From NCBI RefSeq assembly GCF_964213995.1, contig NC_135808.1, forward strand, positions 25,668,001 to 25,732,000: a DNA stretch of 64,000 nucleotides, written 5' to 3'. The translations under genes and the position numbers were made by a program. This document shows positions 6,601-56,040 of the stretch, one piece after another (position 1 is the first letter of the stretch; each line of letters opens with the position of its first letter). This DNA is from Mustelus asterias. Taxonomy: Eukaryota. A model generated the notes under the pieces. That model saw nothing but the letters and a program-made list of their open reading frames with translations. It had not been told where the DNA came from and searched no databases.

Positions 6601-6618
6601 ATTGAATTATGATATCTT

Positions 6619-24864: not shown

Positions 24865-24928
24865 ATGGAAACATTTCACAGTATCGAGAAAATATACTAT
24901 ACAATGCTTGCCTTCGTCGCTGTTCCTG
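24865..24928 (+). CDS. Intact coding exon 1 of GPR139-like GPCR copy 2
   Basis: ATG in AGAATGG context, METFHSIEKIYYTMLAFVAVP plus 1 nt, then a canonical GTAAGT donor (phase 1, 64 nt). Confidence 0.8.
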
Positions 24929-25776
24929 GTAAGTGACACTGACAATTGAAGCTGTGGCACCTGTGCAGCACGTGGTTTCTGGTTTCAAGATGTGACAAAT
25001 AATTTCACAGGGTAATCTAATGGTCACTGTTATACAGACACCTGGTGTGTTACCATTTGGTAAGTCAAATGTTCTGAATAATATCTCAAGTTTAATCCAT
25101 TCCTTAAGTAGATAAAACAACGATGTGTAACTATGAATATTCTTTCCGTCAGTGCAACATTGTGTACACCTGAATCAGAAAGCCAGGGAAATTTCAAAGG
25201 GATGATCCCACTAGGCATGTTTCAGCGCCACTGGGCATGTTTCAGCGCCACTGGAGAGACTAACATTTATTGCCCATTCCTGATTGCCCTTGAGTAGTTG
25301 TGGGTAAGCTGAGAATTTCATTGTCTCCAGTCTATGTGTTGTAGGTCCACCCAAAAAGGTGTTAGGATTGGTATTCGAAGATTTTTGACCCAACGACAGT
25401 GAAAGAGCAATGATATATTTCCAAGTCAGAATGGTGTGTAAATTGGAGGAGAATTTGCAGGTCGTGTCATTCTCACCGATCCGTTGCCATTGCCCTTCTA
25501 GATGATAGCGATCACGGCTTTTAATGTTGCTATTGAAGGAACGTTGGTTGTTTGCCTAACGCCTCGTGTAAGCTAGCACACTGCTGTTACTTGGCGCTCC
25601 AGGTGGATGGAGCAACTGATTAACATGGTTGCCTGGGGTGCCACATAAATTGCTTGCTTTACCACTAATGAAGTCGAGCTTCTTGAGTCTTGGTGGAGCT
25701 GCTCTGATTTCGACGCTTGGAGACTATTCCATCACATGCCTGAGTCATCTCTGTATTCAATGAGGCTGTGTAAGCC

Positions 25777-27970
25777 ATAGAAGATAGAACACAGAACAGT
25801 ACAGCACAGTACAGGCCCTTCGGCCCACGATGTTGTGCCGAACCTTTTCCGAAACCAAGATCAAGCAATCCCACTCCCTAATATTCTAGTGTGCTCCACA
25901 TGCCTATCCAATAACCGACTGAAAGTTCCAAAAGTGCCCGACTCCACTATCACAGCAGGCAGTCCATTCCACATCCCAAACACTCTCTGAGTAAAGAACC
26001 TACCTCGTACATCCCTCCTATATCTTCCACCACGAACCTTATAGTTATACCCCCGAGTAACAGCTACATCCACCCGAGGAAATAGTCTCTGAACGTCCAC
26101 TCTATCTAGCCCCCTCATCATTTTATAAATCTCTATTAAGTCGCCTCTCAACCTCCTCCGCTCTAAAGAGAAAAGCCCTAGCTCCCTCAACCTTTCCTCA
26201 TAAGACCTACCCTCCAAACCAGGCAGCATCCTGGGAAACCTCCTTTGCACTCTTTCCAGTGCTTCCGCATTCTTCTTATAGTGAGATGACCAGAACTGCA
26301 CACAATATTCCAAATGTGGTCTCACCAAGGTCCTGTACAGTTGCCGCATAACCCCATGGCTCTTAAACTCAAACCCCCTGTTAATAAACGCTAACACACT
26401 ATAGGCCTTCTTCACAGCTCTATCCACTTGAGTCGCAACCTTCAGAGATCTGTTGATATGAACCCCAAGATCTCTCTGTCCCTCCACATTCCTCAGAATC
26501 CTCGCTTTGACCCTGTAAACCACATTCAAATTTGTCCAAGCAAAATGAATCACCTCACATTTATCAGGGTTAAACTCCATCTGCCATTTTTCGGCCCAGC
26601 TCTGCTCATATCAATGTCTCTTTGCACCCTACAACAGCCCTCCACCTCATCCACTCCTCCACCAATCTTGGTGTCATCCGCAAATTTACTGATCCACCCT
26701 TCAGCCCCCTCCTCCAAGTCATTTATAAAAATCACAAATAGCAGAGGACCCAGCACTGATCCTTGTGGTACACAACTGGTAACTGGTCTCCAGTCTGAAA
26801 ATTTTCCATCCACCACCACCATCTGTCTTCTATGAGATAGCCAGTTACTTATCAAATAGGCAAAATTTCCCTCTATCCCACACCTCCTTACCTTCTTCAT
26901 GAGCCGACCATGGGAGACCTTATCAAACGCCTTACTAAAATCCATGTATATGATATCAACTGCTCTACCTTCATCAACGCACTTAGTTACCTCCTCAAAA
27001 AATTCAATCAAATTTGTGATGCAAGACTTACCCTTCATGGATCCGTGTTGACTATCCCGGATTAAGCTGCATCTTTCTAAATGGTCGTAAATCCTATCCC
27101 TCAGGACCTTTTCCATTAACCTACCGACCACCGAAGTAAGACTAACCGGCCTATAATTACCAGGGTCATTCCTATTTCCTTTCTTGAACAGAGGAACAAC
27201 ATTCGCCACTCTCCAGTCCTCTGGCACTATCCCCATGGACAGTGAGTACCCAAAGATCAAAGCCAAAGGCTCTGCAATCTCATCCCTTGCCTCCCAAAGA
27301 ATCCTAGGATATATCTCATCTTGCCAAGGGGACTTATCGACCTTCAGGTTTTTCAAAATTGCTCATACATCTTCCCTCAGAACATTTGCCTCCTCCAGCC
27401 TATCAGCCTGTATCACACTCTTAGCCTCAAAAACATGGCCCCTTTCCTTGGTGAACACTGAAGAAAATTATTCATTCATCGCCTCTCCTATCTCTTCTGA
27501 CTCCATGCACAAGTTCCCTCTATTGTCCTTGACCAGCCCTAACCTCACCCTGGCCATTCTTTAATTCCTCACATAAGAGTAAAAAGCCTTGGAGTTTTCC
27601 TTGATCCGACCCGCCAAGGACTTCTCATCCCCCTCCGAGCTCTCCGAAGCCCTTTTTCAGCTCTTTCCTTGCTAACTTGTAACCCTCAATGGAACCAACT
27701 GAACCTTGTTTTCTCATCCTTACATACGCTTCCTTCTTCCTCTTGACCAGACATTCAACCTCTTTTGTGAACCATGGTTCCCTCACTCGGCCATTTCCTC
27801 CCTGCCTGACAGGGACATACCTATCAAGGACACGCAGTATTTGTTCTTTGAACGAGCTCCACTTTTCATTTGTGCCTTTCCCTGACAGTTTCTGTTCCCA
27901 TCTTATGCTCCCTATTTCTTGCCTAATCGCATCATAATTACCCCTCCGCCAATTCTAAACCTTGCCCTGC
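25777..27970 (-). mobile_element. 5'-truncated CR1/HER1-like LINE in the intron of copy 2
   Basis: ORFs 26550..27356(-) ([33 protein letters not shown]) and 25861..26580(-). Same subfamily as 6619-7511 and 35418-37655. Absent in unit 3. Confidence 0.95.
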
Positions 27971-28469
27971 CCTCAAAGAAGTCCTCAAAGAAACTAACAA
28001 ATGGACAGGAAGATATGTTGGTTCCATTTTCTCTCCACAAATGCTGTCAAACCTGCAGAGGTTCTCCAGCATGTTCTGCTTTTGATTCAGTTTGCAGCAT
28101 CCGCAGTATTTTGACTTGACCTAAGGGAATGCTTTTGGTGCTTGTTGGTGGTTGGGAATTACTGCATCAAGTGAAATATATTAATAATGCTGCGTTTCCT
28201 CTTGAACAACAACAATTTAAATAAATGTTAACTAATTGCTGACAGGTAAATGCTGATCTATTCTGTATTCAAATGCTCTGGATAATTTCTTACTCTTACT
28301 CGGCGTATAATTACTGTAACAATTTTACTTGTATCACTGCTAATTGTCTCTTTGCCCAATACCGTTGTGAGTATATGTGGGTAATGAGTGTTCTCTGCTT
28401 TAAGATCTTCCTGTGATAAGGGCTTAACATTGGTCTGTTGTTATACAGTTGTGCACTTTGAAACTGAAC

Positions 28470-28795
28470 AATAACCAGTATTGCAACTCTCCCACCTCTT
28501 TTGCCTGCCTCTCTGTCTCGCCAAAACCATTTATATCCCGGAATATTTAGCTGCCAGTCCTGTCCCCCTTTTAACAAAGTCTCCATTATCGCAACCATAT
28601 CCATGTTCCGTGCAAGAATCAAGACTTTAACTTCATCAGTCTTACCGTTTATACTCCTTGCATTGAAGCAGATGCACACAAGACCTCCGAAAAGAGGTCG
28701 AACTGAGTTCGACCTCCCCCAGTCTGCTCCTCCTCTTTGCTAGCTTGCCCTTGGTTCCATGCTCATCCTCAGTCTCTACTCTTGCTGACCTACTG
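28470..28795 (-). mobile_element. Isolated CR1 ORF2 endonuclease N-terminal fragment
   Basis: CICFNARSINGKTDE...VAIMET...DWQLNIPGYKWFWRDREAGKRGG. No 3' tail. Absent in unit 3. Confidence 0.8.
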
Positions 28796-29858
28796 TTCAG
28801 TGTAATATCAAATGTTTAGAGGTTCGACGGATGCAACCTATATTGTACTCTGGTCTTAGCTCACCGCCGTGTTCCCGAGCAAAAAAGCATGTGCTCATGA
28901 AAAACATAGTTCCCTGGTTTCATAAGTCTGAGCACAATAAATATTAACATGATCGATAACTAAACTATTGCCATTTCTGTGGTGTTAAAAATGATATTTT
29001 TAAGTAGCAATTTACTAATATTCAAAAATATATCGAGCAACATTGAATTTACAACACTGAAACCATCTTTTCGGTTTGTGTTAGCACCCATGTTCCACAC
29101 GAGCCATCCCCACTCTTCTTTATCGAACGGAGTCACCAGAATCTTCTTAAACTTTTGCCTAGTTTCCAGTTCAATTAATCTGATCCCAGTTAACCGAGTT
29201 CGCCATTCTCTTCATTCCCTGATTGAAGACAGTTCTCGTGAATGGCTTCCTTTCTATTAATGACCGTTTTACAGTGATATTCCCAAATACTAGAGCCTCC
29301 ACATATCTTCTCTTTGTCAAGCTTATCAAATCCATTTAGTGCCTTATATCCTCAAGCAGATCTGCTCTCTGCCATGTATTTTCGAACGAAAATACCCCAC
29401 CCAGTTTCTTCCCTCCAGATTGTTAACGTCTCTAAGTCCTAATATTGATCCTGGTGAAGCATTTTGCATCTTCTTATGTTTTCCCACAAATGCTTTCTCT
29501 GTTATTATAGAGACCAGGACTATAAACAATCTATTAATTAGGAAAGAACTGATGTCCTGGATACGTTTGATATAACATTTCAAGCTCATTCATGATCTAA
29601 TAGGCCTGTATTAAGTCTGTCCTCAACCTTTTTTGTTCCCTGTTAAAGGTTCTAAACATTCTTATATTTGTGAAATGCATGCATATCGGACACCTGGACC
29701 ATAATGTGCACATTGCAATTTTATTTCTGCACATGTTTAATGAAAATAACCTCCGATTTTCAATAATTTACCTTTAGAAATAAACACTGGCGTTCTGTTT
29801 CAATATTTATTACCTCGTTAAAGTACATTGTGACGGGAGCGGTAAAGTCCATTGTGAC

Positions 29859-30197
29859 GGGCGGCACGGTAGCACAGTGGTTAGCACTGCTGCTTCACAG
29901 CTCCAGCGACCTGGGTTCGATTCCCGGCTTGGGTCACTGTCTGTGTGGAGTTTGCACATTCTCCTCGTGTCTGCGTGGGTTTCCTCCGGGTGCTCCGGTT
30001 TCCTCCCACAGTCCAAAGATGTGCAAGTTAGGTTGATTGGCCATGCTAAAATTGCCCCTTAGTTTCCTGGGATGCGTAGGTTGGAGGGATTAGTGGGTAA
30101 ATATCTAGGGATATGGGAGTAGGGCCTGGGTGGGATTGTGGTCGGTGCAGACTCGATGGGCCGAATGGCCTCTTTCTGTGCTGTCGGGATTCTAAGA
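29859..30197 (+). mobile_element. Full-length HE1-like V-SINE
   Basis: GGGCGGCACGGTAGCACAGTGG...GGTTCGATTCC head, V-domain and CR1-like tail. Confidence 0.93.
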
Positions 30198-30567
30198 CAT
30201 TATCTTTTTATCAACCTGTACATCTCCAACCCTTTTTAAGTTCCACTATTTTCCCAGTTACCTCCCTTTTTCATTTACTGCATTTGCTCGATGAACTTAA
30301 TCTTAGTCATTCTCTCTCTCTCCATCTCTCTCGTCTGTGTTAATACATGTTGCACTCCTCTTTCTTTCTGTGTTCTCCCTTTGTTTCAGTTCTGACTCCC
30401 ATCTATCACTGCCTTTGTCTCTCCCTTTGCTGACTTGCGTTCTCTGCTCTTGCTTCTCATTATTTCTTCTCCTCTGTATTACCATTGTCTTTCTGAGTTC
30501 TATTCTCCTCACTCCTGAATCTAGCTCTTCTCCAATTCACCACGAAGGTTGTCTCGCCCTGCTCTTT

Positions 30568-31320
30568 TTTCTGGACATCACACCGGTGTGTGGTGTTATC
30601 ATTGCTATGTCTTATGCAGAAACAGAATGTTTCTCCTTTCAAAATATTTGTGGTAATTTGTTGCCAGAAGCTGAATATTAAATATTGCTCCAAGAACACT
30701 GTAGCTATCGTTCTAGCAACAACAGGCATTCTGATTTCTTTAAAGGATATCCCCTTTTATTTTACATTTGAACCTGCAGAGATACTGAACAATGTGCCCC
30801 GGCTCTGTAATGAAAGATCAATCTTTTATACTGATCTTGCATGGGTAGGATTTGAATGGTTTGATAAGGTATTAACCCCATTACTCCAACATGCTCTAAT
30901 CCTGTTGCTCAATATTCTGCCAGTCAGATGTATTATAGTGACCAGTCAAGTCCGAAAAGGACCGAGTAGTCAAAACAAGGGAGATAATTGCACTGACACA
31001 GAGGTAGAAAGCAGAAGGAAGTCTGTGATTTTGCTCTTCAACATAGCTGCTACGTTCACTATGTTATGGCTTGCATATGGTATAGACTTCATCCTTTATA
31101 GTACGACAGGAATTTACCCAGAATATTACAACAATCGTCTTATATATTTGCAAAGGTTGCACTTATGCTGTTCAGTTTAAATTGCTGTACAATTGCTGTA
31201 CAATAAACAATTGCATTTGTTTATGGGGCGACACAGTCCAAGTTCACGGAGTAGTTCAAGTATGCAGCGAATTATCCTATCACATTAATTACTACATTGA
31301 TGTATGAATAAAGGGACTGA
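30568..31320 (+). pseudogene. Broken exon 2 of GPR139-like copy 2
   Basis: Starts abruptly at FLDITPVC with no acceptor and no TM1-TM2. Lesions: ~21-nt deletion after ETEC, +1 frameshift near 30644, frameshift near 31140, AATTGCTGTAC duplication, and an in-frame TAG near 31251. Confidence 0.9.
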
Positions 31321-31648
31321 GAGCAGCCTGGTGTTGGAGAATTGTGTATGTGCCAGAGGATGCTACATAGATGGGGAGGGTGTGGGAGTTGGAGGAGCTG
31401 ATTGACATTGAGAGGAGTAAAGGAGCTGACGGATACAACAGAGATGAGAAGGTTCGGAGAGATTGGAGTAGTTGGTTTTATAGGGATTAGAATAGGGGCT
31501 CGATGAGGCAACAAATATGATGGGTGTAGGAGCAGATTAATGGGGAGCGGAAATCAGGAAACCTTGGAGTCCATAAATAACTGGATAAATATTTGTCACC
31601 CATTTGCACCATTTTGTCACTGAAGAGATTCATTCAGAGGAGCTCTCC

Positions 31649-32532
31649 AGTTATAATTCAGCTCAGAAACTCCAAAGTGTTTTACAAAATCCGCCTCGAT
31701 CATAAGCTTTGCAATTTCGGCTACAGTAAGAATGAGATGTTTCTCTACAGGTATGATTCAACTGACCCACTAAAGAGCTTTAATCAAAAGACGTTTATTC
31801 ATAAATACAATTAACATGTATAGAAAGGAAGTAAGTATGTTTTTTTACTAATTACAAACAAGGAAATAAACAACTATGATGATCTATAAACCGTAATAGC
31901 GAAATAGCGTTCCAACCAAACAAAACCCACAAACGAAACATTTACCACAGGTTTAGCACAGAAAATACAAATGCTCACGTGATGCTGGAAATTCCTCTTT
32001 TGGTTGGATGCTGCAGTTCTCTTGATATGCATATAAACAAGCTTGAAGTCAGAACAGCTTCCCAATACATCAGAACGAGACAGAGAGAGAGAGGGGGGGG
32101 GGGGGGAGGACACTAGGCATTAACTACAGCAGGCGTTCACTCCAGGAAGCCGAGGAGGTCTGCTTCCAGCTATCGATCAGAATTTCCAATAACACGGAGA
32201 GGCAGAGAGAGATAGAGAGAAAACCTGCCTGCCATCTGAGAAATGGGACAACTTCTGATGCTGAAATCAAATCTGAAACTGAATCCTTGGATGCTTCTGG
32301 GGAGGAACCACCTGACTTTGACTTGTCAATCAATTTTCCCCTCACAATGCAGGGTCATAAAATATCCCAGAAAGTACCTGAGGCACAGTGTAAAAATAAA
32401 CAAAACGCCATTTAAACCATTGGAGCGGCAATTAAAGGACTTCTGACCCGACAGCCTGCCAACAATGAAAAAAACTTAAAGCCGCTTAACGTTTCGAAAA
32501 ATCATTTTTTAATGGTACACAGGCATCGCGCC
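31649..32532 (-). mobile_element. Unit-2-specific ~880-bp insertion, possibly a degenerate solo LTR
   Basis: Interrupts sequence that is contiguous in unit 1 (~14205). Non-coding, with AG/G tracts. The termini only loosely resemble TG...CA. Confidence 0.4.
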
Positions 32533-34380: not shown

Positions 34381-34524
34381 CATGGGTAAGATGGGTATAC
34401 AGCGATATGGGCCAAATGCAGGCTATTGGAATTAGCTTAGGGGTTTAAAAAAAGGCGGCATGGGCAAGTTGGGCCGAAGGGCCTGTTTCCATGTTGCAAA
34501 CCTCTATGACTCTCTGACTCTATC
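34381..34524 (+). mobile_element. Short CR1 3' tail nested in a family-B LINE
   Basis: GGCAAGTTGGGCCGAAGGGCCTGTTTCCATG...(CTCTATGA)n. Same subfamily as 18672-19172 and 61621-61942. Confidence 0.75.
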
Positions 34525-35034
34525 ATCAATTGATTCCCCACTGTCAACATCCTTGAATTTACCATTGACCCAAAACTCAACTGGACACGCCACATAAACA
34601 CAGTGGCTATAAAAGCAGGTCACTGGCTGGCAATGCTGCGGCGAGTAGCTCACCTGCTGATTCCCCAAAACCTATCCACCATCTAGAAGTCTCAAGTCAG
34701 AAGTGCGATTGGATAATCCCCACTTGCTTGTACAGGTGCAACTCCAACAACACTGAAAAAGCTTGGCATTATCCAGGGCAAGGCATCTCACTTGATTGGT
34801 CCCACATTCTCAAACATCCACTACCTCTTCCAACAGCGGTGGTATGTACTAACTCCAAGATGCACTGCAGTAAATCACCAAAGACACTGCACCTTCCAAA
34901 CCCAAGGCCAGTATTATCTGGAAGAAAAAGTGCAGCAGATGCATGGGAACACCACCAATTGAAAGCTCCCTTCCAAGCCACTCACCATCCTGACTTGGAA
35001 ATTTATCAACATTCTTTCACAGTCGCTGGGTCAG

Positions 35035-37880
35035 GATTGATCACATGGTGTGAACAGAACAGCCAGTCCTTGTTGGGAGGTATGGAAACAGGCTTTCACA
35101 ATAATTCTGCCGATGGCCAAATGGAGCAGGATGGTCACAATATTGTTATATCGTTTCCTCAGGGTGAGCAAACGATGCAATTGAAAAGTTGGCTGTCCAA
35201 GTTTTCTTATTGAAAGCGCTTCAATAACATTTAGAGCCTTGTAGAAAGAGGATTTCCCATTTCTTGTGTATCGATGCATAAAACAACGCAGAATACTACA
35301 CGTGACGGGTCCCAGGTTCATTGTTGCCTGGATGCACAATGCATATCAAATTGCCAGACATCAGGGACAACAGCTTTTAGTCGGAGATTCAAGAAGATGA
35401 TGAAGAGAAAATAAATGTGGCAATGGAGAGGGAGAGGGCTATGCGGCAGGGCATAGTTTACAATTGGGGGAGAGGTAATTATGATGCAATCAGGCGGGAA
35501 TTAGGAAGCATAGGATGGGAACAAAAATTGTCAGGGAAAGGCACGAATGAAAAGTGGAACTTTTTCAAGGAACAAATACTGCGTGTCCTTGATAAGTATG
35601 TCCCTGCCAGGCAGAGAGGAAATGGCCGAGTGAGGGAAACATGGTTCACAAAAGAGGTCTTGTCAAGAGGAAGAAGGAAGCATATGTAAGGTTGAGAAAA
35701 TAAGGTTCAGTTGGCTCGATGGAGGGTTACAAGTTAGCAAGAAATGAGCTGAAAAAGGGGCTTAGGAGAGCTAGGAGGGGGCATGAGAAGTCCTTGGCGG
35801 GTCGAATCAAGGAAAACCCCAAGGCTTTTTACCCTTATGTGAGGGATAGAAGAATGACCAGGGTGAGGTTGGGGCTGGGCAAGGACGGCAGTGGGAATTT
35901 GTGCATGGAGTCAGAAGAGATAGGAGAGGTGATGAATGAATACTTTTCTTCGGTGTTCACCAAGGAGAGGGGACAAGTTTATGAGGAAGAGAGGGTGTCA
36001 CAGGCTGATAGGCTGGAGGGAAGATGTACTAGCAATTCTGAACAAACTGAAAGTTGATAAGTCCCCTGGGCCTGATGAAATATATCCTAGGAGTCTTTGG
36101 GAGGCAAGGGATGAGATAGCAGAGCCTTTGGCATTGATCTTTGCGTCCTCACTGTCCACAGGGATGGTGTCAGCGGACTGGAGAGTGGCGAATGTTGTTC
36201 CTCTGTTTAAGAAAGGGAATAGAAATGACCCTGGTAATTATAGGCCGGTTTGTCTTACTTCGGTGGTCGGTAAGTTGATGGAAAAGGTCCTCAGGGATAG
36301 GATGTACGACCATTTAGAAAAATGCAGCTTAATCCGGGATAATCAGAACGGATTTGTGAAGGTCAAGTCTTGCCTCACAAATTTGATAGAATTTTTTGAG
36401 GAGGTAACTAAGTATGTAGATGAAGGTAGTGCAGTTGATGTCATATACATGTATTTTAGTAAGGCGTTTGATAAAATCCCCCATGGTCGGCTTATGAAGA
36501 AAGTAAGGATGTGTGGGATAGAGGGAAGTTTGGCCGATTGGATAGGTAACTGGCGATCTAACAGAATGTGGAGATGCCGGTGTTGGACTGGGGTATCTAT
36601 CAGAAGACAGAGGGTGGTGTTGGATGGAAAATTTTCGGACTGGAAACCGGTTACCAGCGGAGTGCCACAGGGATCAGTGCTTGGTCCTCTGCTATTTGTC
36701 ATTTTTATAAATGACTTGGAGGAGGGAGCTGAAGGGTGGATCAGTAAATTTGCTGATGACACCAAGATTGGTGGAGTAGTGGATGAGGTGGAGGGCTGTT
36801 GTAGGCTGCAAAGAGATATAGATAGGATGCAGAGCTGGGCTGAAAGATGGCAAATGGAGTTTAACCCTGACAAAAGCGAGGTGATTCATTTTGGTAGGAC
36901 TAATTTAAATGTGGATTTCAGGGTCAAAGGTAGGGTTCTGAAGAATGTGGAGGAACAGAGAGATCTTGGGGTTCATATCCATAGATCTCTGAAGGTTGCC
37001 ACTCAAGTGGATAGAGCCGTGAAGCAGACCTATAGTGTGTTGGCGTTCATTAACAGGGGGTTTGAGTTTAAGAGCCGTGGGGTTATGCTGCAACTGTACA
37101 GGACCTTGGTGAGACCACATTTGGAATATTGTGTGCAGTTCTGGTCACCTCACTATAAGAAGGATGTGGAGACACTGGAAAGAGTGCAAAGGAGATTTAC
37201 CAGGATGCTGCCTGGTTTGGAGGGTAGGTCTTATGAGGAAATGCTGAGGGAACTTGGGCTTTTCTCTTTGGAGCGGAGGAGGCTGAGAGGAGACTTGATA
37301 GAGTTTATAAGATGATGAGGGGGATAGATAGAGTGAACGTTCAAAGACTATTTCCTCGGGTGAATGGAGTGGTAACTAGGGGGCATAACTATAGGGTTCA
37401 TGGTGGGAGATATAGGAAGGATGTCCGAGGTAGGTTTTTTACTCAGAGAGTGGTTGAGGTGTGGAATGGACTGCCTGCAGTGATAGTGGAGTCAGAAACT
37501 TTAGGAACATTTAAGAAGCTATTGGATAGGCACATGGAGTACTTCGGGATGATAGGGAGGCAATAGCTTGATCTGGGTTTCAGACAAAGCTCGGCACAAC
37601 AACGTGGGCCGAAGGGCCTGTTCTGTGCTGTACTGTTCTATGTTCTATGTTCTATAAACCATTATATTGACCACGGAAGGGAAGTTTAGACAGTCAGATG
37701 TGATGCCAGGTGATAAAGCACAAGTTGGACGGGAGAGTGCAATCAGATAGATTAACGGTTCAAATGATGAATAAGAAAGAATAAACACAATCGAGAGATG
37801 CTATCCTTCCACTTTGCTAATGGAGCGATGTCACTGTGGCAGCTGTTGTGAGCACACTCATAGACATTGCTGAATGAAAT
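35035..37880 (-). pseudogene. Possible degraded P2Y/HCAR-like GPCR, split by the LINE at 35418-37655
   Basis: Antisense pieces in class A order: IVFILSY...LI(A)LPSNLCFITW (TM1-like), IIFLNL/ISD..LLSL (TM2-like), NLGPVTCSILRCFMH (ECL1-TM3-like), FQLHRLLTLRKRYNNIVTILLHLAIGRII (ICL2/TM4-like). Requires several frameshifts. Confidence 0.4.
35418..37655 (+). mobile_element. 5'-truncated CR1/HER1-like LINE
   Basis: ORF 35936..37315 encodes RT ([26 protein letters not shown]). Tail (TTCTATG)n. Confidence 0.96.
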
Positions 37881-40410: not shown

Positions 40411-40462
40411 TCCGGAGAGCGAGCCGACACAGGGAGAACGTGCAAACGCCACGCAGACAGTT

Positions 40463-40713
40463 GGGGCGGCACGGTGGGTACAATGGTTCGCACTGCTGCC
40501 TTACAGCGCCAGAGACCCGGGTTCAATTTTTGGCTTGTGTCACTGTCTGTGTGGAGACTGCACGTTCTCCTGGTGTCTACGTGGGTTTCCTCCGGGTACT
40601 CCGGTTTCCTCCCACATTCTCAAATACGTGCGACTGTGGCGACGAGGGGAATTGCTCAGTAGCTTCATTGCTGTGTTAATGTAAGGCTTGCTTGTGACTA
40701 ATAAATCAACTTT
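40463..40713 (+). mobile_element. V-SINE variant nested inside an antisense HE1 copy (host pieces 40410-40461 and 40723-40793)
   Basis: GGGGCGGCACGGTGG head, V-domain and alternative tail. The host SINE is the unit-3 counterpart of 16500-16812. Confidence 0.85.
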
Positions 40714-43700
40714 GAAACACTTCAAGGCCAGAATTGAACCTGGGCCCCTGGCTATGAGGCAGCAATGTTAACCACTGAGCCACCATACCTCCCACACTGT
40801 TGCTCTTAATCACCAATTAAAAGAGCAATTGAAATTATTTCAACAATTGGAGATAGTTTGTGATTTTTTTAATTGATTAAAAAATATGCTGCAGAGTAAA
40901 ACTACAAGAATGATGTCCTTGAAGGATATTTTACTCCAGGAGGGAGTATGGCTTCGGTATTCCTACTGTTGTTCAGTCATCCACATGGACCCGTGTTCAG
41001 ACAGGACTGGAAATCTCGAATGCAAATTCTGAAAAAGTGTAAACAGCACTTTTGACCATTGTTTGCTGGATAGATGTGACAGAACAAACATTGATGGGAC
41101 ATTAATCCAAGAGCAGCGAAATGAATTATCCAAAGGCAAGATAGAACCAAGAGCAGCAGTAAGTGAAGACACAGCATTTACGAAGTTAGAAGCTTTAGAG
41201 ACTGGTGAATCTTTGCACGGGGTATAATGTCCCAAACATTGCTAGGCTGGACGTGCAGACAACAGCTAAGTTTCGATGAAGGACAGAAAGATACGGTCAA
41301 CATTTGGAAACACAGTTTGACAAATGTTTGAACGCAGTAATACAAAAGGAGGATAACAGATTGAAGCAGGAGTTGGCCTTTCCATTCCTTGAGTCTTCTT
41401 CACAATTTAACTCCATCGTGGCAGCTCTTCTCTCTCAGTGGAACTTCCCTGCCCTATCTCCACATCTCTTGATGTGTTTCAACATCTTGAAATCCAATGA
41501 TACCTCTGTCGAACATATTCAGTGACTGAACCTAATCTCGTTCTGTTGTCGAGAATCCAAGGATTCAACACCTTCTGAGTGAAGCCATTTCTCCTCATCT
41601 CAATCTTAAATGGCCTTCCTTTAATCATATCAGTATAAGTATCCCTGTTTCTAGACACACCTATCCCCACCACCACCCATCCCCAACCACACCCCAGTCT
41701 GGGGAACATTCTTCCTGCATCTACCATGTCGAATCCTTAAAATTTTCGGGCACCAATGAGATCACCTGTCAATTACGAAATTCAAGAGAATACAGGGCTG
41801 GTCTCGCAATCTCTTCTGATATAACAATCTTGTCACCCATTGATCAGTTTGAAGAACTGTCATTGTATTCAATCTATCGCCAGTGTACCCCTTTCTCTGG
41901 TAAGAAAGCACAACATTCCAGGTGCGGTCTCCCCAAACCTTTATGCAATTGCAGAAAGACAAAAGATACCATCAATGGAGGTTGGGAGGTGATGGCCGAA
42001 TAGTACTACCACGAGACTATTAATCCAGAAACTCAGTTAATGTTCTGGGGACCAGGGTTCGAATCCCACCATAACTGATGGTGGCATTTGAATTCTTGAA
42101 ACCTCAGGCAATTGCAGTAAAAACCCAACTGGTTCACTAATGCTTCTTATGGACAGATGTCTGCCATCCTTACCTGTGTCCGGCTAATATGTGACGCCAG
42201 AGCCACAGTAATGCTGTTGCATCTCAACTGTCTTCTGACATGGCCTAGCAAACCATTCCGTTCACCAGCTCCTTATCAAGAACAAATAGGGATGGGCAAT
42301 AAATTCTATGGATGGGCAATGAAGGCTCATGAATTGTTAAAAATATGCTTTCCCGCGTTCCAGCTTTCAGTGACTCATGATCAAGGACATCCATGGCCAT
42401 TTTTGGTATCAATACTTTCCAATCTCACCCCATTAAGAAATATTCTTCAGTTTTGCGGGGTTTTTTTGTTTCTTAACAAAGTTGATTCCTTCGCATTTTT
42501 CCACATGATATAACATCAGCCATGTTATTATCTATTCACATAGCCTGCCTAAATCACCCAGAAATCTCCTTCCGTCATCTAACTACTAATTCAAACATAG
42601 AAATAATCAATTTCGTCCCTACATTCAAATCATTGTTATATATTTTGAATAGCTGGTGCCCAATCGCTAGTTGTTGCAGTATTCCACCAGTCAGAGTCTA
42701 AAACCTCAGAATTATCCATTTATTCCAACTCTCTGGGCCATAACTTCTGTGGGGTGACACAGGATGTTACGGCCTCGCTCGACCCGAGACTGGAAAATCC
42801 CGCACGAGGTCAACGGACCTTCCCATTGTCCGCCCCTCGCCTGTTCTGATTCACATAGCGGGCTGGTCGGTAGAATTCCGGCATAACAGTCAGATCGACG
42901 TTCCACTCCTTGCTGGTTTTGCACAGTTCTCGAGTAGACTTTAGATGTAGGTGCTGTGAGAAATATGAAGCATGCTCTGTTCCTGAGTCCTTCCAGTATG
43001 TGATAGCAGCGTCGGGGCAAATGAAGCAATCTCATTGTGTACAGCACTGACTGCCACAAACCAGGGAGTTTAAGGATCCAGCTAATTTAAGAAATCAGCG
43101 AAAAAGTAAGAGTGTCAGTTAAGTGCTTGAAATGGGTGGATGGTTGGGCAACCGGCAGTCGGGGATTAGGCATGTAGTTGATTTGGCAGAAATTTAGTGC
43201 AGCGGGTGAGGAGGTCGTAGCATGTTTGGGAGAGTAGCCGGGGTGGGGAAGCCAGGGGGTTAGAAAGGTGGTCAGTGATTTGGGAGGGTGGTCAGCGGCT
43301 TGGGTATGAGGTCGAGGCTGTGGGCTGGATGACAAATATAGTCAGCGAGTGAGGTTGGCCGGAAATCAGAGGTGAGAGACCTCAAGGGATTGGGGTTTGG
43401 TCGGGTCGTCGCAGAGTGGGGAACAAGTGAGGCGTTCATGAAGACCTGCGTTCAGATGGGGAGGCCAGAATAGAAAATAAAAGGAATTAGATCGCAATCC
43501 ATGGTCTATTGGGACCAAATTAATCTCTTGATTATCAAAAGCCACGTGTAATAGGAACTGATGCAATTCATTCAGCCAGGTTGCAGTTCAATAAGATCAT
43601 GGTAGGTATGCTTGCATTTCGATGAACCCCCAATACTTTAAGGTGCCTCATCCCTGATTTCTGGCGAACCCCACTCCCTGACAATATCCGTCATCCAGCC

Positions 43701-44559
43701 GTCGACCGCAAATAATGTTTGATTCTCTTGCCTCAAATGAATCTATCCACCTCCAAAGTAAACAAATATCCAATGCCCCGCCTCCACCTTCTGCTAAACA
43801 AGGATTTCCAGCTTTGTACTCTGAGAGATTTATTTTTGATGCACATAAATTGGTCTGGGAAATTTTAATTTGTTCTTCTGCTTCTATGCAGAGGTCCCTT
43901 AATTTTGATTGAGGTGGGGAGTGTATATTCTGAGAGCTTGAAAGATCCGCAATATATTTCTCTGGCCTTTATTTCTTTGTTTTCTGGTGTGAGCATCGCT
44001 GGCTTGGCCAACATTTAATGCCAATCCTGAATTACCCTTAAGCTGCCATCTTGAGTTGCTTCAGTTGATGTGGTGTTGGTACACCCAGCGTGCTGTTAGG
44101 GTCGGCATTACAGAATTTCCAATCGGGATGCAGAGTGATTGATGGAAGATTAGCATGTGGCAATGTCCCCAGGTACCTGCTTCTTCTCCATGGTAAATGT
44201 CCTTTGTTTTGAAACGGCTGAACACGAAGCCTTGGTGAGTTCATGCCGTGAATTCCGCAGATGGGATACATTGCTTTCACTCAACGTCTGTTGTGAAGAG
44301 AATGGATGGTTAATTTGATGGATGGAGTGTGGATGAAAGGAGTTGTCGTAGAATCATAGAGATTTCGAAAATTGAATGAGACTATTTAACCTCAAGTGCA
44401 TTACACAAGTGTCAGGCAATAGCCATCTCCCACAACAAATAATCTACTCATCTCTCTTTACATTCAATGGCATTACGATCGCTCAAACATCCATAACTGG
44501 GAATTTTGCAGAAAATAACTCATCTCCTGAGTCGCCAAAGCGTCCTAACAAGGTGCAAG

Positions 44560-46027
44560 GCACCTTGATGAAATATGTTGTACAGTTAAATCAGAGTAGA
44601 GACCTCTCAGGGTTAAAATTCCCGGGGAAATATATGCCATTGTGGAATTAACGGTAAGTGACGCTGGAACAGCACTCAGGAAGCTTGACACCATCCAGGT
44701 CAAAGCAGTCGAGTTGATTGACACATCATCAACCACCTCCAATATCCACTCTAACCATGCAAAGCGACAGCAGTGTATACCAGCTGCAAAACGAACTGGA
44801 GCAACCCACCAACTAAAGGTTTCGACAACATCTTCCAAACCCTCGACCTCTATCATTTGGAAGGACAACTGCAGCAGATACCTGGGAACACCACCATCTG
44901 GAACTTCCCCTCCAAGTCACTCACCATGCTAACTTGGAAATATATCAACAGTTCCTTGAATGTTGCTCGGCAATAATCCTGGAATTCCCTCCCCAACAGC
45001 ACGGTGGATGTGATTACACCACATAGCCTGCAGTGGTTCAGGAAGACAGCTCACCACCATTTTCTCATGGACAATGGACAATAGTCAATAAATGCTATTG
45101 CAGCCAGTGATATCCATTTCCGGTGAAAGAATTGAAAAACAGCAAAAACAAGCTTCATGCTCTGGGGAAATCCACTGGAAACGGCTTTGCTGCAGAACAA
45201 TCCATGAAAATGAAACTTGGTTACTTCCTTCCCGCAGATTTTGATTGAACTTGACACATTCCTGTGTATCTCCTGTGGTCCCTACTTTAACACGTCCACC
45301 TGCCCAGCTTAATTCGCTAAAACAAGCCGAGAACAGTCCACATTTCATTATGGGAGTGTTCTTTACTGGCTGAAAATTGTATTTCCGCGATACATTTTAA
45401 TGATTCTGCCAATTATGTGGCGTTTACTTAAGTCCATCCCAGTTAGTATTCGGGTCCTAGAAAACAACTACTATTAGTGCTCCATTGCTTTTGCAATTCT
45501 TACAGGATTATCTACAGATTTGCTCCTCGAGCTGCATCTGGGACACAGAAAGTTCACCCCTGGCTGTGTAGTCCCTGCATTGCTGTTCTTCAGTTCTAGC
45601 CACATAGTCTTCTTTGACGATCCCTCAAGCATGTGACAGTCATAATGATATCTTTCATTAGCACTGCAGCACCAGCCTGCTCTGGAAAACCCCATCTCAC
45701 CTGAAAACTCCAGGTCTGGAAACAAGCTCACACACCTTTTGCTGGTCCGTCAAATTTTCCATCAATCAATATCTGACTAATCCCGCAGCGAATGGAATGG
45801 GAAATATGCTCCTGTTGTGCTGCCATCCCTGTCATTCTTTAAGTGACTGTAAGGGTGTGAGAGCTATTTCGTTGTGCGCCGCTTAGAAAGATGGAGAAGA
45901 TGTAAGAATGAGAGGGTCACTGGATTTTAAATTTAGCACCTTGATGAAATATGTTGTACAGTTAAATCAGAGTAGAGACCTCTCAGGGTTAAAATTTCCG
46001 GGGAAATATATGCCATTGTGGAATTAA
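44560..46027 (+). repeat. 92-bp direct duplication (44560-44651 and 45936-46027)
   Basis: GCACCTTGATGAAATATGTTG...GCCATTGTGGAATTAA, 91/92 identical. Confidence 0.95.
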
Positions 46028-46910
46028 ACTGAAGGGTTGTAGTAGTTTGAGGATGCACTCGAACTATATAACCGTCCCGTCACAATTAAACAGGGCAGCC
46101 ACATCCCAGTGTTCAGTAGAAGAGCCCTGAGGGGACAGATCAAATTTAGAACGTAATTGTTGAATGGACAAGGGGGGAGTAACGTGATCACTGGAACACT
46201 TTGAGATCTAGAGATCGAGCAGATTGCATCTGAATGATTAACACCATTACTGGGAGAATGCCACGTCCAATTTTCATAGTTAATTGATTAATAATAATAT
46301 AAGAAGTTGGAGCGGGTATAAGCAATTCAGCCTCTAGAGTCTGTTCCGCAATTCGATATGATCATGGCTGATCTTGTGTCATCTCAACTCTGCATTCGTG
46401 CCCGTTCTCCTTAACCCTCCAGTCCACGACTAATTAAACATGTTTCTATCTCCTCCACAAATTCATTCAATGTCCCACTACCCACCAACCTCTTAGGCAG
46501 TAAATTCCACAGTTTCAGAAGCTATGAGAGAAGAAATTTTGCTGTACGATACCAGGATGCAGGCCATCAAACCCTGGGGACTTGTCTGCCTTCAATCCCA
46601 TTAGTTTGCTCAGCACCTTTCCTTAGTGATAATGATTGTTTTAGATCCTTCTTTCCTATTACCTCTACACTACCTGTTGCTATTCGGGTGGTACTTCTGT
46701 CCTCCACTGCTCAAACTGAGGCAAAGTACTGATTTGGGGTCTCCACCATTTCTCTGTTCTCCAGACTCATCCTCCGATGGCGTCCCATTCAGTGTTTATG
46801 GCTTTCCAGTGCAATCTCGGGACAAAAATATCACAAGGAGGACGTATCTCCCTAGTTGTCAAAATGTTTGCTCATTTTATTTTAAAAACTAAAGGAAGGC
46901 AAGTCGAACG

Positions 46911-46955
46911 ATGTTGCAACATGAGTGTCCCGATCGTGTTCCCTCAGGGTATAAA
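46911..46955 (+). promoter_or_regulatory. Putative promoter of GPCR copy 3
   Basis: Perfect 12-bp palindrome ATGTTGCAACAT (46911-46922) and TATAAA (46950-46955), 97 nt before ATG 47047. Confidence 0.6.
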
Positions 46956-47046
46956 TTAGTGGTCCTGTGAATGTAATACCTCTGAGCTTTACTTCGAGAG
47001 AGAGATTACCGACAGCACGAGGGGATTGACCATTCGCACATAAAGA

Positions 47047-47093
47047 ATGGAAACATTTCACATAATCAGGATAATATACTGTTGGTGTTCGTG
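47047..47093 (+). pseudogene. Frameshifted exon 1 of GPR139-like copy 3
   Basis: ATG GAA ACA TTT CAC...ATA TAC T|GTT GGT GTT CGT G|GTAAGT is 47 nt versus 64 nt in copies 1 and 2 (17-nt deletion). Splicing to 50649 gives TGT TAA, a 16-aa peptide. Confidence 0.85.
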
Positions 47094-49092
47094 GTAAGTG
47101 ACTATGACAACTGAATCTGTGTCAACCTGTGCAGCAAATGATTTCTGGTTTGATGCTGTGACAAATGCTTTCACTCCTGATATAAACGTCACTATTATAC
47201 AGGCACCTGGTTTGCTACCATTTTGTAAGTTAGATATTCTGAATCAATATCATGTTTTAACCCATTCCTTAAACAGGCAAAAAACCAACGGGTAACTCGC
47301 CATTGTCAAGTTATTTCATTTAGTGGAATATTATGTACAGCTGAATCAGAAAACCAGGGAATTCTCAAAGAGAAGATCTTACTGGACCTATTTCATTTAC
47401 TGGTTCACAGGATGTGAGCGCCACTGGCCAGTCCAGCATTTAATGTCCATTCCTGATTGCCCTTGAGGAGTTGGTGCTGAGCTGCCTTTTTAATCGTCTC
47501 CTGTCCATGTTTTTTGGATCCACCCACGAAGATGTTCGGAATGGTTTTCGACGATTTTGACCTATAGACGGTGAAAGAACAATGAAATATTTCCAAGTCA
47601 GGATGGTGTGCAACTTGGAGACGAGCTTGCAGGTGGTGTCCTTCCCATGGATTTGCTGCACTTGTACTTCTAGGTGATAGTGGTCACGACTTTTGATGGT
47701 GCCATTGAAGAAACCTTGGTTGTTTGCTCAATGTGTCGTGTACAAAGCAAACTGCTGCCATGGTGGACGAAGCAAATGGTTAAGATGGTTTATGGGGTTG
47801 CCGCATCAGTTGACTGCTTTACCCTTGATGATGTGGATTTTTTTTAAGTGTGTCTTGGTAGACCAGCTCTGATTTCGGCACTTGGAGACTATTCCATTAA
47901 ATGTCTGACTCATCTCTGCATTCAATGAGGCTGTGTCAATCCTCAAAAAAAACTAACAGATGGACAGGGGAATACGTTGGCTCCTTTCTCTCTCCACAAA
48001 TGCTGTCAAATCTGCTGAGTTTTTCCAGCATTATATGTTTTTTGATTCAGATTGCAGCAACCGCAGGAATATTTTTGGTGTTCACTAGCGTTTGTGAATT
48101 ACTGCATCAAGTGAAACATATTAATATTGCTGCGTTTCGTCTTGAACAACAGCAACTTAAATAAATGTGAACTAATTACTGACAGGTAAAAAGCTAAGCT
48201 GTACTGTATTCAAATTCACTGCAGAATGTCTTACCCTTATTCTGTGTACTGTTACTGTTAAGATTTTAGTTGTTTGACTGCTAATTGTCCCTTCTCCCAG
48301 CATCATCTGGAGAATCTAAGTGCTGTCTGTTTTATGATCTGTCTGTGATAGGGGCTGAATATTGGTCTTTTGTTGTAGAATTGTACACTTCTGTATCTGA
48401 TTAATATCTGATGGGTCAGTAAATATCAATGATTCAGAGTCTCCATATACGAAACCTGCATTGTACTCTGGTCTTAGCTCACCAAGATGTGACCCATCAA
48501 AGAAAGGCAAATATAACTGAAAAACATAGTCATGAAACAGAGATCAGTCCGACCACAGTAGGTGTTATCATGATTGAACTCTTTATTATTAAATGAATAT
48601 TGCACTGCTTCAGTAAGTAAACCAGCCCAAATCTGTGGTGTTAAAAATAACTTGGTTTTAATTAGTTTGTTTACATATATTCAAAATACACAGAACAGCA
48701 TTAAATTTAATTCCAAGAAACAACCTCTTTGGTTTGTGTCAGTATTCACGCTCCTCACGAGCCGATCCCCAACCTTCTTCATCGAATCCAGTCACCATAT
48801 TCTTCTTATGTTTTCGACCTCGCGTAACTGCCGAGTTTCCACTCCGATAAATCTGATCCCAGTTGACCGGGTTCGCCCTTCGAAAGATTCCCTCATTGAA
48901 GACAGTTACCCTTAAGGCGCTTTTGTATTTATTAATGACCATTTTATGGTGATAGTCCCTAAAGTTAGAGAGTCCACTACTTGGAAATAACTTCTCTATC
49001 AAATCCATTTATTACCTTACATCCTCCATTAGATTTGCCCTCAGCCTTCCTTTTTCTAATGAAAACGCCACAAATAATGTATTCCCTTCTTT

Positions 49093-49391
49093 GGGGCTGC
49101 ACGGTCCCATAGTGATTAGCGCTGCTGCCTCACAGCATCAGGGACCCAGATTCCATTCCAGCCTTGGGTCATTGTCTGTGTGGAGTTTGCATAATCTCCC
49201 TGTGTCTGCTTGGATTTACTCCGGGTGACCCGGTTTCCTCCCACAGTCCAAGATATGCAGGTTAGGTGAATTGGCCATGCTCAATTCTCCCTTAGTGTAC
49301 ACGATCAGGTACTGGATTGTGACGACTAGGGGATTTTCACAGTAACTTCATTGCAGTGTTAGTACACGCTGACTTGTATCTAATAAATAAA
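49093..49391 (+). mobile_element. V-SINE variant with the alternative tail
   Basis: tRNA-like head, V-domain and ACTAGGGGATTTTCACAGTAACTTCATTGCAGTG...AATAAATAAA tail. Absent in unit 2. Confidence 0.85.
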
Positions 49392-50648
49392 TATCAACTG
49401 CTCCTGGTGAAGCAGTTTGCACCTTCTTATGTTTCCCCACATATACTTTCCCCTTTAATAGAGACTTTACGTAATCTATTAATTAAAAAGTTTGATTTCC
49501 TACACACGTTTAATATGAAATTTCAAGCTCATTCATGATCTGAGAAACCTCTATTATGTCTGGCCTCAACCTACTTTGCTCCCTGTAAAAAGTTCAATAC
49601 ATTCTTATATTTGGGAAATGCATGTTCATCGAACACACGCACCCATAATGTACACATTGCAATGGATATTCTATATACATTTGTAATTTAAAAAATCCTC
49701 TGATTTTCAATAATTTTCCTTTAGAAATGAACATCGGCATCCCGTTTCAATATTTATGGTCTCATTAAATTACATTGTGATTGTATTATTTTGCAATCAA
49801 TCTGAACATCTGCAACCCTTTACAAGTTCCAGTATTTTCCCAATTATCTCCCACTTTCCATGCTCTGGCATTTGTTTGAACTTGATCCCCATCTCGCTCT
49901 TTCCCTCTCTCTTGTATGTGTTGATTCATGTTTCACTCCTCTGTGCTTCTGTTTTCTCCCTCTGATTTGGCTGCTGAAATCATCTATCACAGCCTGTCTT
50001 TCCCGTTGATGACTTGCTTTCTATGTTCCTTCTCCTCAATATTTCTTCTCCTCTGTATTATCTTTGCCTCTCTGAACTCACTATTCATTGTCCCTCCATC
50101 TATCCCTTCCCCATTTCAGCACTATTGCTGTTCCCCCTTTGCCCTTTTTCCCTCGTACCACTTGTTGTCCTGGTCTCTCTCTCTCCTCTCTTTCTTCCTC
50201 ACGCTCTCCTCTGCCTTCCATATGTTTTATCGCTTTACAATATAATACTTATTTTACATTTTCAGGCTCTAGATCCTCTTTCACTGCCTCATACTCTCCT
50301 AACTGTCTCACTTAAATTACGCTTTTTGTTCTGCTGGCAGTGGTACAATGTGGATGGACCCTTATGTACCTCACAATGACTTTCCTCAATTCCAAGTCCG
50401 AAGGCTCAGGCTTCACGGTTCGCACATGAAACGTGAAGAACCTGAAACCAGTTTCTTCACACTTCTTTGAAATATTGCAGTGCCGTGGTACTCACGCACT
50501 AACCCACTTCAGCTGAACAAAAAATGTGGTGAACTATGAGATTGTTCAGGGTTTGTGATGCAATATCGGGAGTTTTATACTGTGATCTGACATGGAAGAT
50601 GTTTCATCAGAAATTTCCAGTCAATTTTCCATTTTCTTTTTCTAACAG

Positions 50649-51559
50649 TTAATTTATTGGCGATTGTGATCCTGTCACGGGGAAAGTGCGGCCTTTCCCA
50701 CTGCACGACGCTTTACCTGGTGGCCATGGCAACAGCGGATTTAATGGTCATTCTCTTTTGGACAATATTGTGGCGGATCAATTCTTACTATTTCGCAGGA
50801 TCATTCCTGGACATCACTCCTGTTTGCAGTGTTATCATTGTTATGTCTTATGCAGCAACAGAATGTTCTGTCTGGTTCACCGTCACTTTCTCCTTTGATC
50901 GATTTGTGGCCATTTGTTGGCATCAGCTGAAAATGAAATATTGCACCAAGAAAACTGCAACTGCTGTTCTAGCAACAACAGGCATTCTAATTTCTTTAAA
51001 GGATATTCCATTCTACTTTACAGTTGAACCTGCAGAGGTACTTGACAATGTTCCCTGGTTCTGTAAAGAAAGATCCATCTATTATACTGATGCTGCATGG
51101 ATGGGATTTGACTGGTTTGATAAGGTATTAACACTATTCCTCCCATATGTTCTAATCCTGTTGCTCAATGCTCTGACAGTCAGATACATTTTAGTGAAGA
51201 GTCAAGTGCGTAAAGGACTTAAGGGTCAGAGCAAGGAATATAATCCCAGTGACCCAGAGATGGAGAGCAGAAGGAAGTCCGTGATTTTACTCTTCACCAT
51301 ATCTGGCACATTCATTATTTTATGGCTTGCATATATTATAGACTTCACCTTTTATAACATTATAGGCATTCATCGAGAATATTACAACGATGCTTTTTCT
51401 ATATTTGCCGAAATTGGGCTTATGATGCTCAGTTTAAATTGCTGTACAAATGCATTCATTTATGGGGTGACACCGTCCAAGTTCAGGGAGCAGTTCAAGA
51501 GTGCAGTGAAATATCCGGTTATATCAATTATTAAATTCTTGCGCAAACAAAACGACTGA
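50649..51559 (+). CDS. Intact exon 2 of GPR139-like class A GPCR copy 3 (end of TM1 to C-terminus)
   Basis: Strong acceptor TTTTCTTTTTCTAACAG|TT. The open frame reads NLLAIVILSRGKCGLS, AMATADL (TM2), TPVC, SVWFTVTFSFDRFVAIC (TM3), LPYVLILLLNAL (TM5), SVILLFTISGTFIILW (TM6), NCCTNAFIY..SKFR (TM7/H8). These motifs resemble GPR139/GPR142. Confidence 0.9.
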
Positions 51560-56037: not shown

Positions 56038-56040
56038 CGG

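What the first reader, a model, noticed from the sequence alone, without database searches (positions are those of the whole stretch)
24865..51559. Two complementary broken paralogues could form one intact receptor by long-range splicing
Seen: copy 2 keeps its promoter, ATG, 64-nt exon 1 and donor, but its own exon 2 has lost the acceptor and TM1-TM2 and carries frameshifts. Copy 3 keeps a perfect acceptor and a fully open 911-nt exon 2, but its exon 1 has a 17-nt deletion that gives an immediate stop after splicing. Joining 24865-24928 to 50649-51559 gives 975 nt, i.e. 324 aa (METFHSIEKIYYTMLAFVAVP-V-NLLAIVILSRG...), with the correct phase and all seven TMs. Inference: with its own acceptor gone, the copy-2 donor could use the next homologous acceptor 25.7 kb away. 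That would be exon sharing across a receptor array and would explain why these two halves stayed clean. The simpler alternative is that copy 3 is a very young pseudogene, or that the deletion is allelic or an assembly error.
Basis: partly seen in the sequence, partly recalled or inferred. Interest (0 to 1): 0.8.

Follow-up and report, generated by a model that had tools for sequence, protein, structure and literature searches.

The report
Complementary broken shark receptor gene pair
Two neighbouring broken copies of a shark receptor gene could in principle be spliced into one whole receptor; this is most likely ordinary decay in a large gene family, but the same layout recurs at a second site, so an RNA test is worthwhile.

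Summary
Copy 2 has an intact 64-nt exon 1 but has lost its acceptor and 654 nt. Copy 3 has a 17-nt exon-1 deletion but an open exon 2. The join gives 324 aa. The window lies in a large shark 'GPR139-like' array in birth-and-death: 9 of 17 local units are broken. The deletion is real: a public contig spans it without a gap and differs at 7 other sites. Copy-3 exon 2 looks like an intact gene (omega 0.40-0.48); copy-2 exon 2 is long dead. Clean halves need no rescue. Intact orphan exon 1s without a partner occur, and copy-2 exon 1 has changed a family-invariant Gly. No transcript could be tested. Verdict: young pseudogene beside an old one about 0.62; selected read-through hybrid gene about 0.22.

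The parts
8136..8199 (+). Copy 1 exon 1 remnant; start codon lost (CAA in place of ATG)
10195..13806 (+). Copy 1 exon 2 remnant (10195-10901, tail about 13728-13806) split by a LINE-like insertion; acceptor and TM1-TM2 part missing
24771..24777 (+). Copy 2 TATA-like box in the conserved proximal promoter
   Evidence: sequence; alignment of 14 copies; function inferred
24865..24934 (+). Copy 2 exon 1 (64 nt, open, phase 1) and donor GTAAGT; two departures from the local majority, both amino-acid changing (Leu17>Phe, Gly19>Ala)
25777..27971 (-). LINE-like (reverse-transcriptase) insertion in the copy 2 intron
   Evidence: ORF list and self-comparison
30368..30390 (+). Acceptor-like site left in the copy 2 intron; splicing exon 1 to it gives a 35-aa product
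   Evidence: use inferred, not shown
30568..31320 (+). Copy 2 exon 2 remnant after a 654-nt deletion; frameshifts and stops; omega 0.73-0.84
31865..31870 (+). AATAAA about 540 nt after the copy 2 stop position, at the same distance as in paralogues C, G and H
35420..37654 (+). LINE-like insertion between copies 2 and 3
46950..46956 (+). Copy 3 TATA-like box, intact; surrounding promoter has 22 private changes against 6 in its sister M over 199 sites
47047..47099 (+). Copy 3 exon 1 (47 nt; 17-nt deletion between 47080 and 47081) and intact donor at 47094; weak in-frame cryptic donors at 47081 and 47087
50629..50648 (+). Copy 3 polypyrimidine tract and AG acceptor
50649..51559 (+). Copy 3 exon 2, 911 nt, open; omega 0.40-0.48; internal in-frame ATG at 50726

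Best explanation
The window is part of a tandem array of two-exon class A GPCR genes (shark 'probable GPR139' expansion) that duplicate and die often. Shown: copy 2 died long ago (roughly 0.1 substitutions per site, from its exon-2 omega and branch length). Its 64-nt first exon survives because it is a small target. Shown: copy 3 exon 2 was under purifying selection for most of its history. Inferred: the 17-nt deletion is recent, about 0.01-0.02 substitutions per site, so copy 3 is a young pseudogene or null allele whose exon 2 has not yet been hit. The fit of the two halves is a by-product of a shared phase-1 intron and many broken neighbours. Low-level read-through splicing may occur but is not what preserves the halves.
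For: 9 of 17 units in 464 kb are broken. Exon 1 is intact in 4 of 7 units whose exon 2 is dead or missing, close to the 0.3-0.55 expected. Intact orphan exon 1s exist with no open partner that needs them: N has no exon 2 in the next 90 kb, and C8:24824534 is followed by a unit with its own exon 1 and a frameshifted exon 2. Copy-3 omega of 0.40-0.48 (CI 0.23-1.04) fits a short neutral period; the chance that exon 2 stays open for 0.01 is 0.33-0.47. Copy-2 Gly19 is Ala, whereas Gly stands in 45 of 45 parsed homologues, 30 of 30 census exons and 8 of 8 intact neighbours; locally only broken copies changed it. Promoter-to-intron rate does not separate intact from dead copies (p=0.64); dead H matches copy 2 (0.29 against 0.28) and intact G exceeds copy 3 (2.5 against 1.96). 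21 generic acceptor-like sites and 38 poly(A) hexamers lie between donor and acceptor.
Against: The only other dead-exon-1/open-exon-2 event found also has an intact acceptor-less exon 1 as its nearest same-strand upstream unit, 24.5 kb away, giving 334 aa; chance about 0.15. None of 7 intact local genes has such a neighbour. Copy 2's promoter plus exon 1 has the lowest relative rate of 14 copies (5/265 against 43/644, p=0.003) and copy 3's is raised (p=0.04). The deletion is shared by haplotypes 2% apart, so it is not brand new. The copy-3 acceptor outscores all other AG sites among 1520 under a family-trained matrix.
Confidence: 0.62

Rival explanations
1. Hybrid gene. When copy 2 lost its acceptor, its terminal exon and poly(A) signal stopped being recognised. 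Transcription ran on, and the copy-2 donor spliced to the copy-3 acceptor 25.7 kb away. Copy 3's own promoter and exon 1 became redundant and decayed, leaving one gene with a long intron that makes a 324-aa receptor. The same route may have acted at C8:22.40-22.42 Mb and its duplicate at 23.99-24.02 Mb. All steps are inferred.
For: In-frame join with canonical sites. Geometry equals the typical penultimate-exon to second-exon read-through (bioRxiv 10.1101/2024.02.05.578895, passages), within the 70-kb criterion (PMC11128028, passages). Slow copy-2 and fast copy-3 promoter. Second locus: intact orphan exon 1, dead donor plus a SINE-like insert by the native promoter, open exon 2 with omega 0.23-0.29. 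Three listed genes have two first-exon copies 2.4 kb apart ahead of one exon 2, both intact in the one pair read.
Against: Gly19>Ala in copy 2; orphans without partners; promoter rate is not diagnostic and promoters are homogenised even between dead copies (D-H 5/188 against 73/649 in intron). Competing acceptor-like sites, one inside copy 2 itself. The second donor lesion could be one event and could not be dated, because the region is a mosaic. Only one independent replicate.
Confidence: 0.22
2. Copy 3 rescues itself. It uses a weak in-frame donor inside its shortened exon 1 (314 or 316 aa, TM1 shortened), or ribosomes reinitiate at the ATG at 50726 after the 16-codon upstream frame (277 aa, no TM1). 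The stop lies in the last exon, so the message should escape nonsense-mediated decay (general knowledge).
For: In-frame options exist; TATA-like box and canonical donor are intact; exon 2 is conserved.
Against: The cryptic donors match the U1 consensus at 4 of 9 positions against 7 of 9 for the adjacent canonical donor. The canonical donor gives no long product with any of 13 nearby AG sites. Loss of 8-10 residues of TM1 would probably impair folding (inference).
Confidence: 0.06
3. The deletion is a segregating null allele and intact copy-3 alleles are common, which keeps exon 2 under selection.
For: Haplotypes of organism A differ by 0-2% here; only one spanning contig was shown, and 16 indel rows were not displayed.
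Against: The spanning contig differs from the window at 7 of 322 sites yet has the deletion, so at least two haplotypes carry it; no 17-nt insertion row among the 12 shown.
Confidence: 0.08
4. The 17-nt deletion is an assembly error.
For: None found.
Against: Contig 1 of run X1 covers 46800-47121 with no gap, 41 bases beyond the site. No second near-identical copy of the region among 30 matches in the genome.
Confidence: 0.02

Closest known systems
Birth-and-death pseudogenes in tandem receptor arrays (general knowledge, as for olfactory receptor clusters)
   Same: Frequent duplication, about half the local units broken, mosaic ancestry, transposon insertions.
   Different: Two-exon genes, so exon 1 and exon 2 can die separately and leave complementary halves.
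Transcription-induced chimerism between tandem paralogues (atp1a1 in stickleback and zebrafish; PMC4971688, passages seen)
   Same: 5' part of an upstream paralogue spliced to the 3' part of a downstream one, same strand, in frame.
   Different: There the parent genes make their own products and the chimeras are annotated transcripts. Here both parents are broken, the chimera would be the only product, and no transcript is known.
CYP3A7-CYP3A51P read-through (mechanism recalled; one search showed only the locus name)
   Same: Splicing between a gene and a neighbouring paralogous pseudogene.
   Different: The upstream gene is intact and the pseudogene gives only a short end (recalled); here neither half is a gene alone.
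Shark 'probable G-protein coupled receptor 139' expansion
   Same: Up to 77% identity to proteins so named in other sharks; same motifs.
   Different: The name is an automatic label; the match to solved GPR139 is weak (E 6e-9), so one-to-one orthology and ligand are not established.

Membership tests
Class A (rhodopsin-like) GPCR | 7tm_1 domain over its full length | tested here: met
   PF00001 positions 2-260 of 260, 84.2 bits against a cut-off of 30.5
Shark GPR139-like expansion | High identity to the shark proteins and a short phase-1 first exon | tested here: met
   55-77% identity among the best 120 of 1655 hits; 64-nt exon 1 in 8 of 8 intact neighbours; a like exon in 30 of 40 census genes
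GPR139 proper (orthologue) | One-to-one orthology with mammalian GPR139 | tested here: inconclusive
   Best solved-structure match is GPR139 but only E 6e-9, next CysLT1 at 5e-7; no tree with GPR139 and GPR142 was built
Read-through (transcription-induced) chimera | Same-strand tandem genes within about 70 kb | tested here: met
   25.7 kb; criterion from PMC11128028 passages
Read-through (transcription-induced) chimera | [quoted passage not shown] | tested here: met
   geometry from passages
Read-through (transcription-induced) chimera | A transcript that spans the junction | not testable with these tools
   Only DNA-type contigs could be laid, and a 20-kb stretch cannot hold both exons
Birth-and-death pseudogene (copy 2) | Disabling lesions and relaxed selection | tested here: met
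   654-nt deletion, frameshifts, stops; omega 0.73-0.84; 29 of 117 conserved columns changed
Birth-and-death pseudogene (copy 3) | Disabling lesion | tested here: met
   17-nt frameshift, stop after 16 codons, confirmed in a public contig
Birth-and-death pseudogene (copy 3) | Relaxed selection on the coding sequence | tested here: inconclusive
   omega 0.40-0.48 and 9 of 156 conserved columns changed, within the intact range 4-13; expected for a young pseudogene and for a rescued exon alike

The most novel reading that the evidence does not exclude
In this receptor family, loss of an acceptor repeatedly turns an upstream copy into a distant first exon for the next copy, whose own first exon then dies. 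Pairs that annotate as two pseudogenes are one working gene with a 25-kb intron, at the window and independently at C8:22.40-22.42 Mb and its duplicate. Promoters would thus be swapped between receptors by splicing, without recombination.
Probability: 0.22. Interest if true: 0.72.

Novelty: new member of a known kind. Interest (0 to 1): 0.42.

Why it matters
On the best reading this is ordinary turnover in a receptor array. If the hybrid reading is right, two apparent pseudogenes would form one gene, a route to new promoter-receptor pairings that pseudogene counts and fusion callers miss (RTCpredictor offers a filter that discards paralogue pairs). It is directly testable by one RT-PCR at each of two independent loci. 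The family itself is very large and may deserve study: 130 near-full-length matches were scored out of 5892 first-look candidates, in animals with few known olfactory receptors (mean 43.8 in cartilaginous fishes, PMC10869828 passages). Four library searches found no paper describing this expansion; the library lacks most subscription journals.

Tried and rejected
No RNA holder listed among 11 runs; this says nothing on expression. Of 11 runs 4 were laid, all as contigs, with tables cut. The exon-1 state of the organism B orthologue (intron contigs about 5% diverged) was not displayed, so the deletion could not be dated by species. Most shared variants in X1 proved to be paralogue M. Half-depth of copy-3 contigs in X1 suggested hemizygosity, but site 48676 showed full depth, so I dropped it. 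No protein encoded by the window was listed among homologues; not evidence. Branch rates come from pairwise and three-point distances and singleton counts, not from a branch codon model, and intervals are wide. The acceptor loop used a 48-nt exon by an off-by-one slip, and its 328-aa result is void; redid it. One search had a one-base slip at a joint, corrected. The family-trained acceptor matrix (20 of 29 loci used) is biased towards copy 3; a generic rule gave 21 competitors. In the census 8 of 40 genes had no exon 1 within 9.9 kb and are unresolved. The 30-of-30 Gly count may be inflated because the finding matrix rewards Gly. Orphan counts rest on capped hit lists and are upper bounds. Six more distant family fragments in the 464 kb were left out of the 17-unit count. 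The search for intergenic splicing with CYP3A7 found 0 papers; PMC12294341 passages were irrelevant. No earlier scan notes. No supplements were read; they could bear on the claim that the expansion is undescribed.
Full report
Verdict. The anatomy is real. The likeliest cause is ordinary gene death (about 0.62). A selected read-through hybrid gene is a live minority reading (about 0.22), raised by a second locus with the same layout. No RNA could be tested.

Observation. Copy-2 exon 1 is 24865-24928 with a canonical donor. Copy-3 exon 1 is 47047-47093, 17 nt short, and stops after 16 codons when spliced. Copy-3 exon 2 (50649-51559) is open, and the join gives 324 aa. Copy 2 lacks 654 nt that held the acceptor and the first 155 nt of exon 2, and has further frameshifts and stops. 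Copy 1 (8136-13806) has lost its ATG and acceptor and is split by a LINE-like element.

Setting. The window is G000:C8:25668001-25732000 in a 3.68-Gb genome. The protein is a class A GPCR. Its best 120 of 1655 homologues all come from sharks and are nearly all labelled 'probable GPR139'; the match to solved GPR139 is weak (E 6e-9). In 464 kb around the window I counted 17 units of the local subfamily: 8 intact and 9 broken. Six more distant fragments were left out. All intact units have a 64-nt phase-1 exon, so any exon 1 fits any exon 2.

Is the deletion real? Yes. A contig of run X1 covers 46800-47121 with no gap and 7 substitutions, so two haplotypes about 2% apart carry it. X1 may be the assembled individual, in which case this is its other haplotype. 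The genome holds no second near-identical copy among 30 matches. An intact allele is not excluded, because the tables were cut. A related organism (B) has an orthologous intron about 5% diverged, but its exon 1 was not displayed.

Selection on exon 2. Three-point distances give copy 3 a terminal dS of 0.08-0.10 and omega 0.40-0.48. Intact neighbours give 0.18-0.44; dead D, E, H, I and copy 2 give 0.67-1.33, and dead copy 1 gives 0.49. Copy 3 departs at 9 of 156 conserved columns, intact copies at 4-13, dead copies at 15-29. Copy-3 exon 2 was therefore selected for most of its history, and copy-2 exon 2 has been dead for most of its own. This does not separate a young pseudogene from a rescued exon. 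With frameshifting indels at 0.04-0.06 per substitution in introns, the exon stays open with probability 0.33-0.47 over 0.01 substitutions per site, 0.05-0.13 over 0.027 and at most 0.01 over 0.06. The age of the deletion is the decisive unknown.

Is copy-2 exon 1 preserved? Not clearly. Exon 1 is intact in 4 of 7 local units with a dead or missing exon 2, as expected by chance. Unit N has an intact exon 1 and no exon 2 in 90 kb. Both departures of copy 2 from the local majority change the protein. One replaces a Gly found in 45 of 45 parsed homologues (of 84 kept by length from 120), 30 of 30 census exons and 8 of 8 intact neighbours. Gly to Ala is a mild change, so this is not fatal to the idea. 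Copy 3's promoter has 22 private changes against 6 in its sister M (p=0.004). But this ratio does not separate intact from dead copies (p=0.64). Dead H ties with copy 2, intact G exceeds copy 3, and dead D and H share a near-identical promoter, which points to gene conversion.

Could the splice happen? The geometry is the usual one for read-through chimeras (passages) and within 70 kb (passages). A family-trained matrix ranks the copy-3 acceptor first of 1520 AG sites. A generic rule finds 21 competitors, one at 30390 inside copy 2, and none gives more than 146 aa. There are 38 poly(A) hexamers on the way, one at a position shared with three paralogues. That loss of the terminal acceptor weakens poly(A) use is general knowledge, not tested here.

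Control census and the second locus. Of 40 further genes with an open exon 2, 30 had an intact exon 1 within 9.9 kb, 8 were unresolved and 2 had a destroyed donor. These two are 99.3% identical duplicates, hence one event. There the nearest same-strand upstream unit is an intact exon 1 (C8:22396282). Its intron homology stops about 600 nt short of the acceptor and it has no exon 2 of its own; an opposite-strand pseudogene lies between. It joins the downstream exon 2 in frame (334 aa, 24.5 kb). That exon 2 has omega 0.23-0.29. The dead native exon 1 has a SINE-like insert beside its promoter, at most 94% like the 23 other copies held. The duplicate has the same intact upstream exon. The base rate of such orphans is 2 of 16 locally and at most 7 of 40 listed in that subfamily, so this replicate has a chance of about 0.15. 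The window itself was chosen for the pattern and does not count as a test. Counter-controls: one listed orphan has a stop, and another intact one precedes a unit with a dead exon 2. Three listed genes have two first-exon copies ahead of one exon 2, both intact in the pair read, which shows a natural intermediate.

Mechanism. Shown: the lesions, their reality, selection on copy-3 exon 2, decay of copy-2 exon 2, recurrence of the layout. Inferred, best reading: copy 3 died recently and the fit is a by-product. Inferred, rival: acceptor loss led to read-through, which made copy 3's first exon redundant. Minor rivals are self-rescue by cryptic donors or reinitiation and a segregating null allele. 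My odds for the hybrid were about 0.08 before the second locus and are about 0.22 after it; these are judgements, not computed values.

Known systems and novelty. Chimeric transcripts between tandem paralogues are described in fish (PMC4971688, passages), with intact parents. A receptor made only by joining two broken paralogues would be a new variant of that kind. My searches for it were few (listings seen) and do not show that it is unreported. On the best reading the locus is a new member of a known kind. Four searches found no description of the shark GPR139-like expansion, and PMC10869828 (passages) has no occurrence of 'GPR1' in its main text. No supplements were read.

Noticed in passing
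G000:C8:22396282-22421771 (L117, L118, L086, L025) and duplicate 23989549-24018867 (L119, L088, L028): Independent locus with the same layout: intact acceptor-less exon 1, then a unit with destroyed donor and an open, conserved exon 2; in-frame join of 334 aa over 24.5 kb.
   Followed up: yes
G000:C8:22359572 and 22361978 (L125, L126); like pairs at 23952968/23955391 and 23850875/23848450: Two identical intact first exons 2.4 kb apart ahead of a single exon 2: possible alternative promoters. Only the first pair was read.
   Followed up: partly
G000, many contigs: Very large GPR139-like receptor expansion in a shark (5892 first-look candidates, 130 scored); no paper on it found in four library searches.
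   Followed up: partly
G000:C8:25841982 (unit N, L061-L062): Intact exon 1 with homology ending about 500 nt into the intron and no exon 2 in the next 90 kb.
   Followed up: yes
G000:C8:25498849 and 25572986 (units D and H): Two dead copies share a near-identical promoter (5 of 188 sites differ) while their introns differ at 73 of 649: likely gene conversion.
   Followed up: partly
G000:C8:24850413-24855650 (L121, L122): Mirror case of the second locus: intact exon 1 with a frameshifted exon 2 that is 96% like the open one, while the 5' regions differ by about 10%; mosaic ancestry.
   Followed up: partly
window 50591-50648: The intron end of copy 3 is open in the exon-2 frame for 19 codons and hydrophobic, mimicking TM1, but has no in-frame ATG.
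   Followed up: partly
window 16758-21895 and 40741-45011; 22851-25771 and 45029-47936: The duplicated unit extends about 8 kb upstream of exon 1 at 76-84% identity, so copies 2 and 3 are old tandem duplicates of a block of at least 17 kb.
   Followed up: no
window 6606-7511, 9479-10195, 10902-13727, 25777-27971, 35420-37654, 53070-56063, 60361-61028: Many LINE-like reverse-transcriptase fragments, several inserted in or next to the receptor copies.
   Followed up: no
G000 small contigs such as C848, C3275, C98, C762: Dozens of small contigs carry near-identical matches with a 347-aa open frame: a recent high-copy amplification of one family member, or uncollapsed haplotigs.
   Followed up: no
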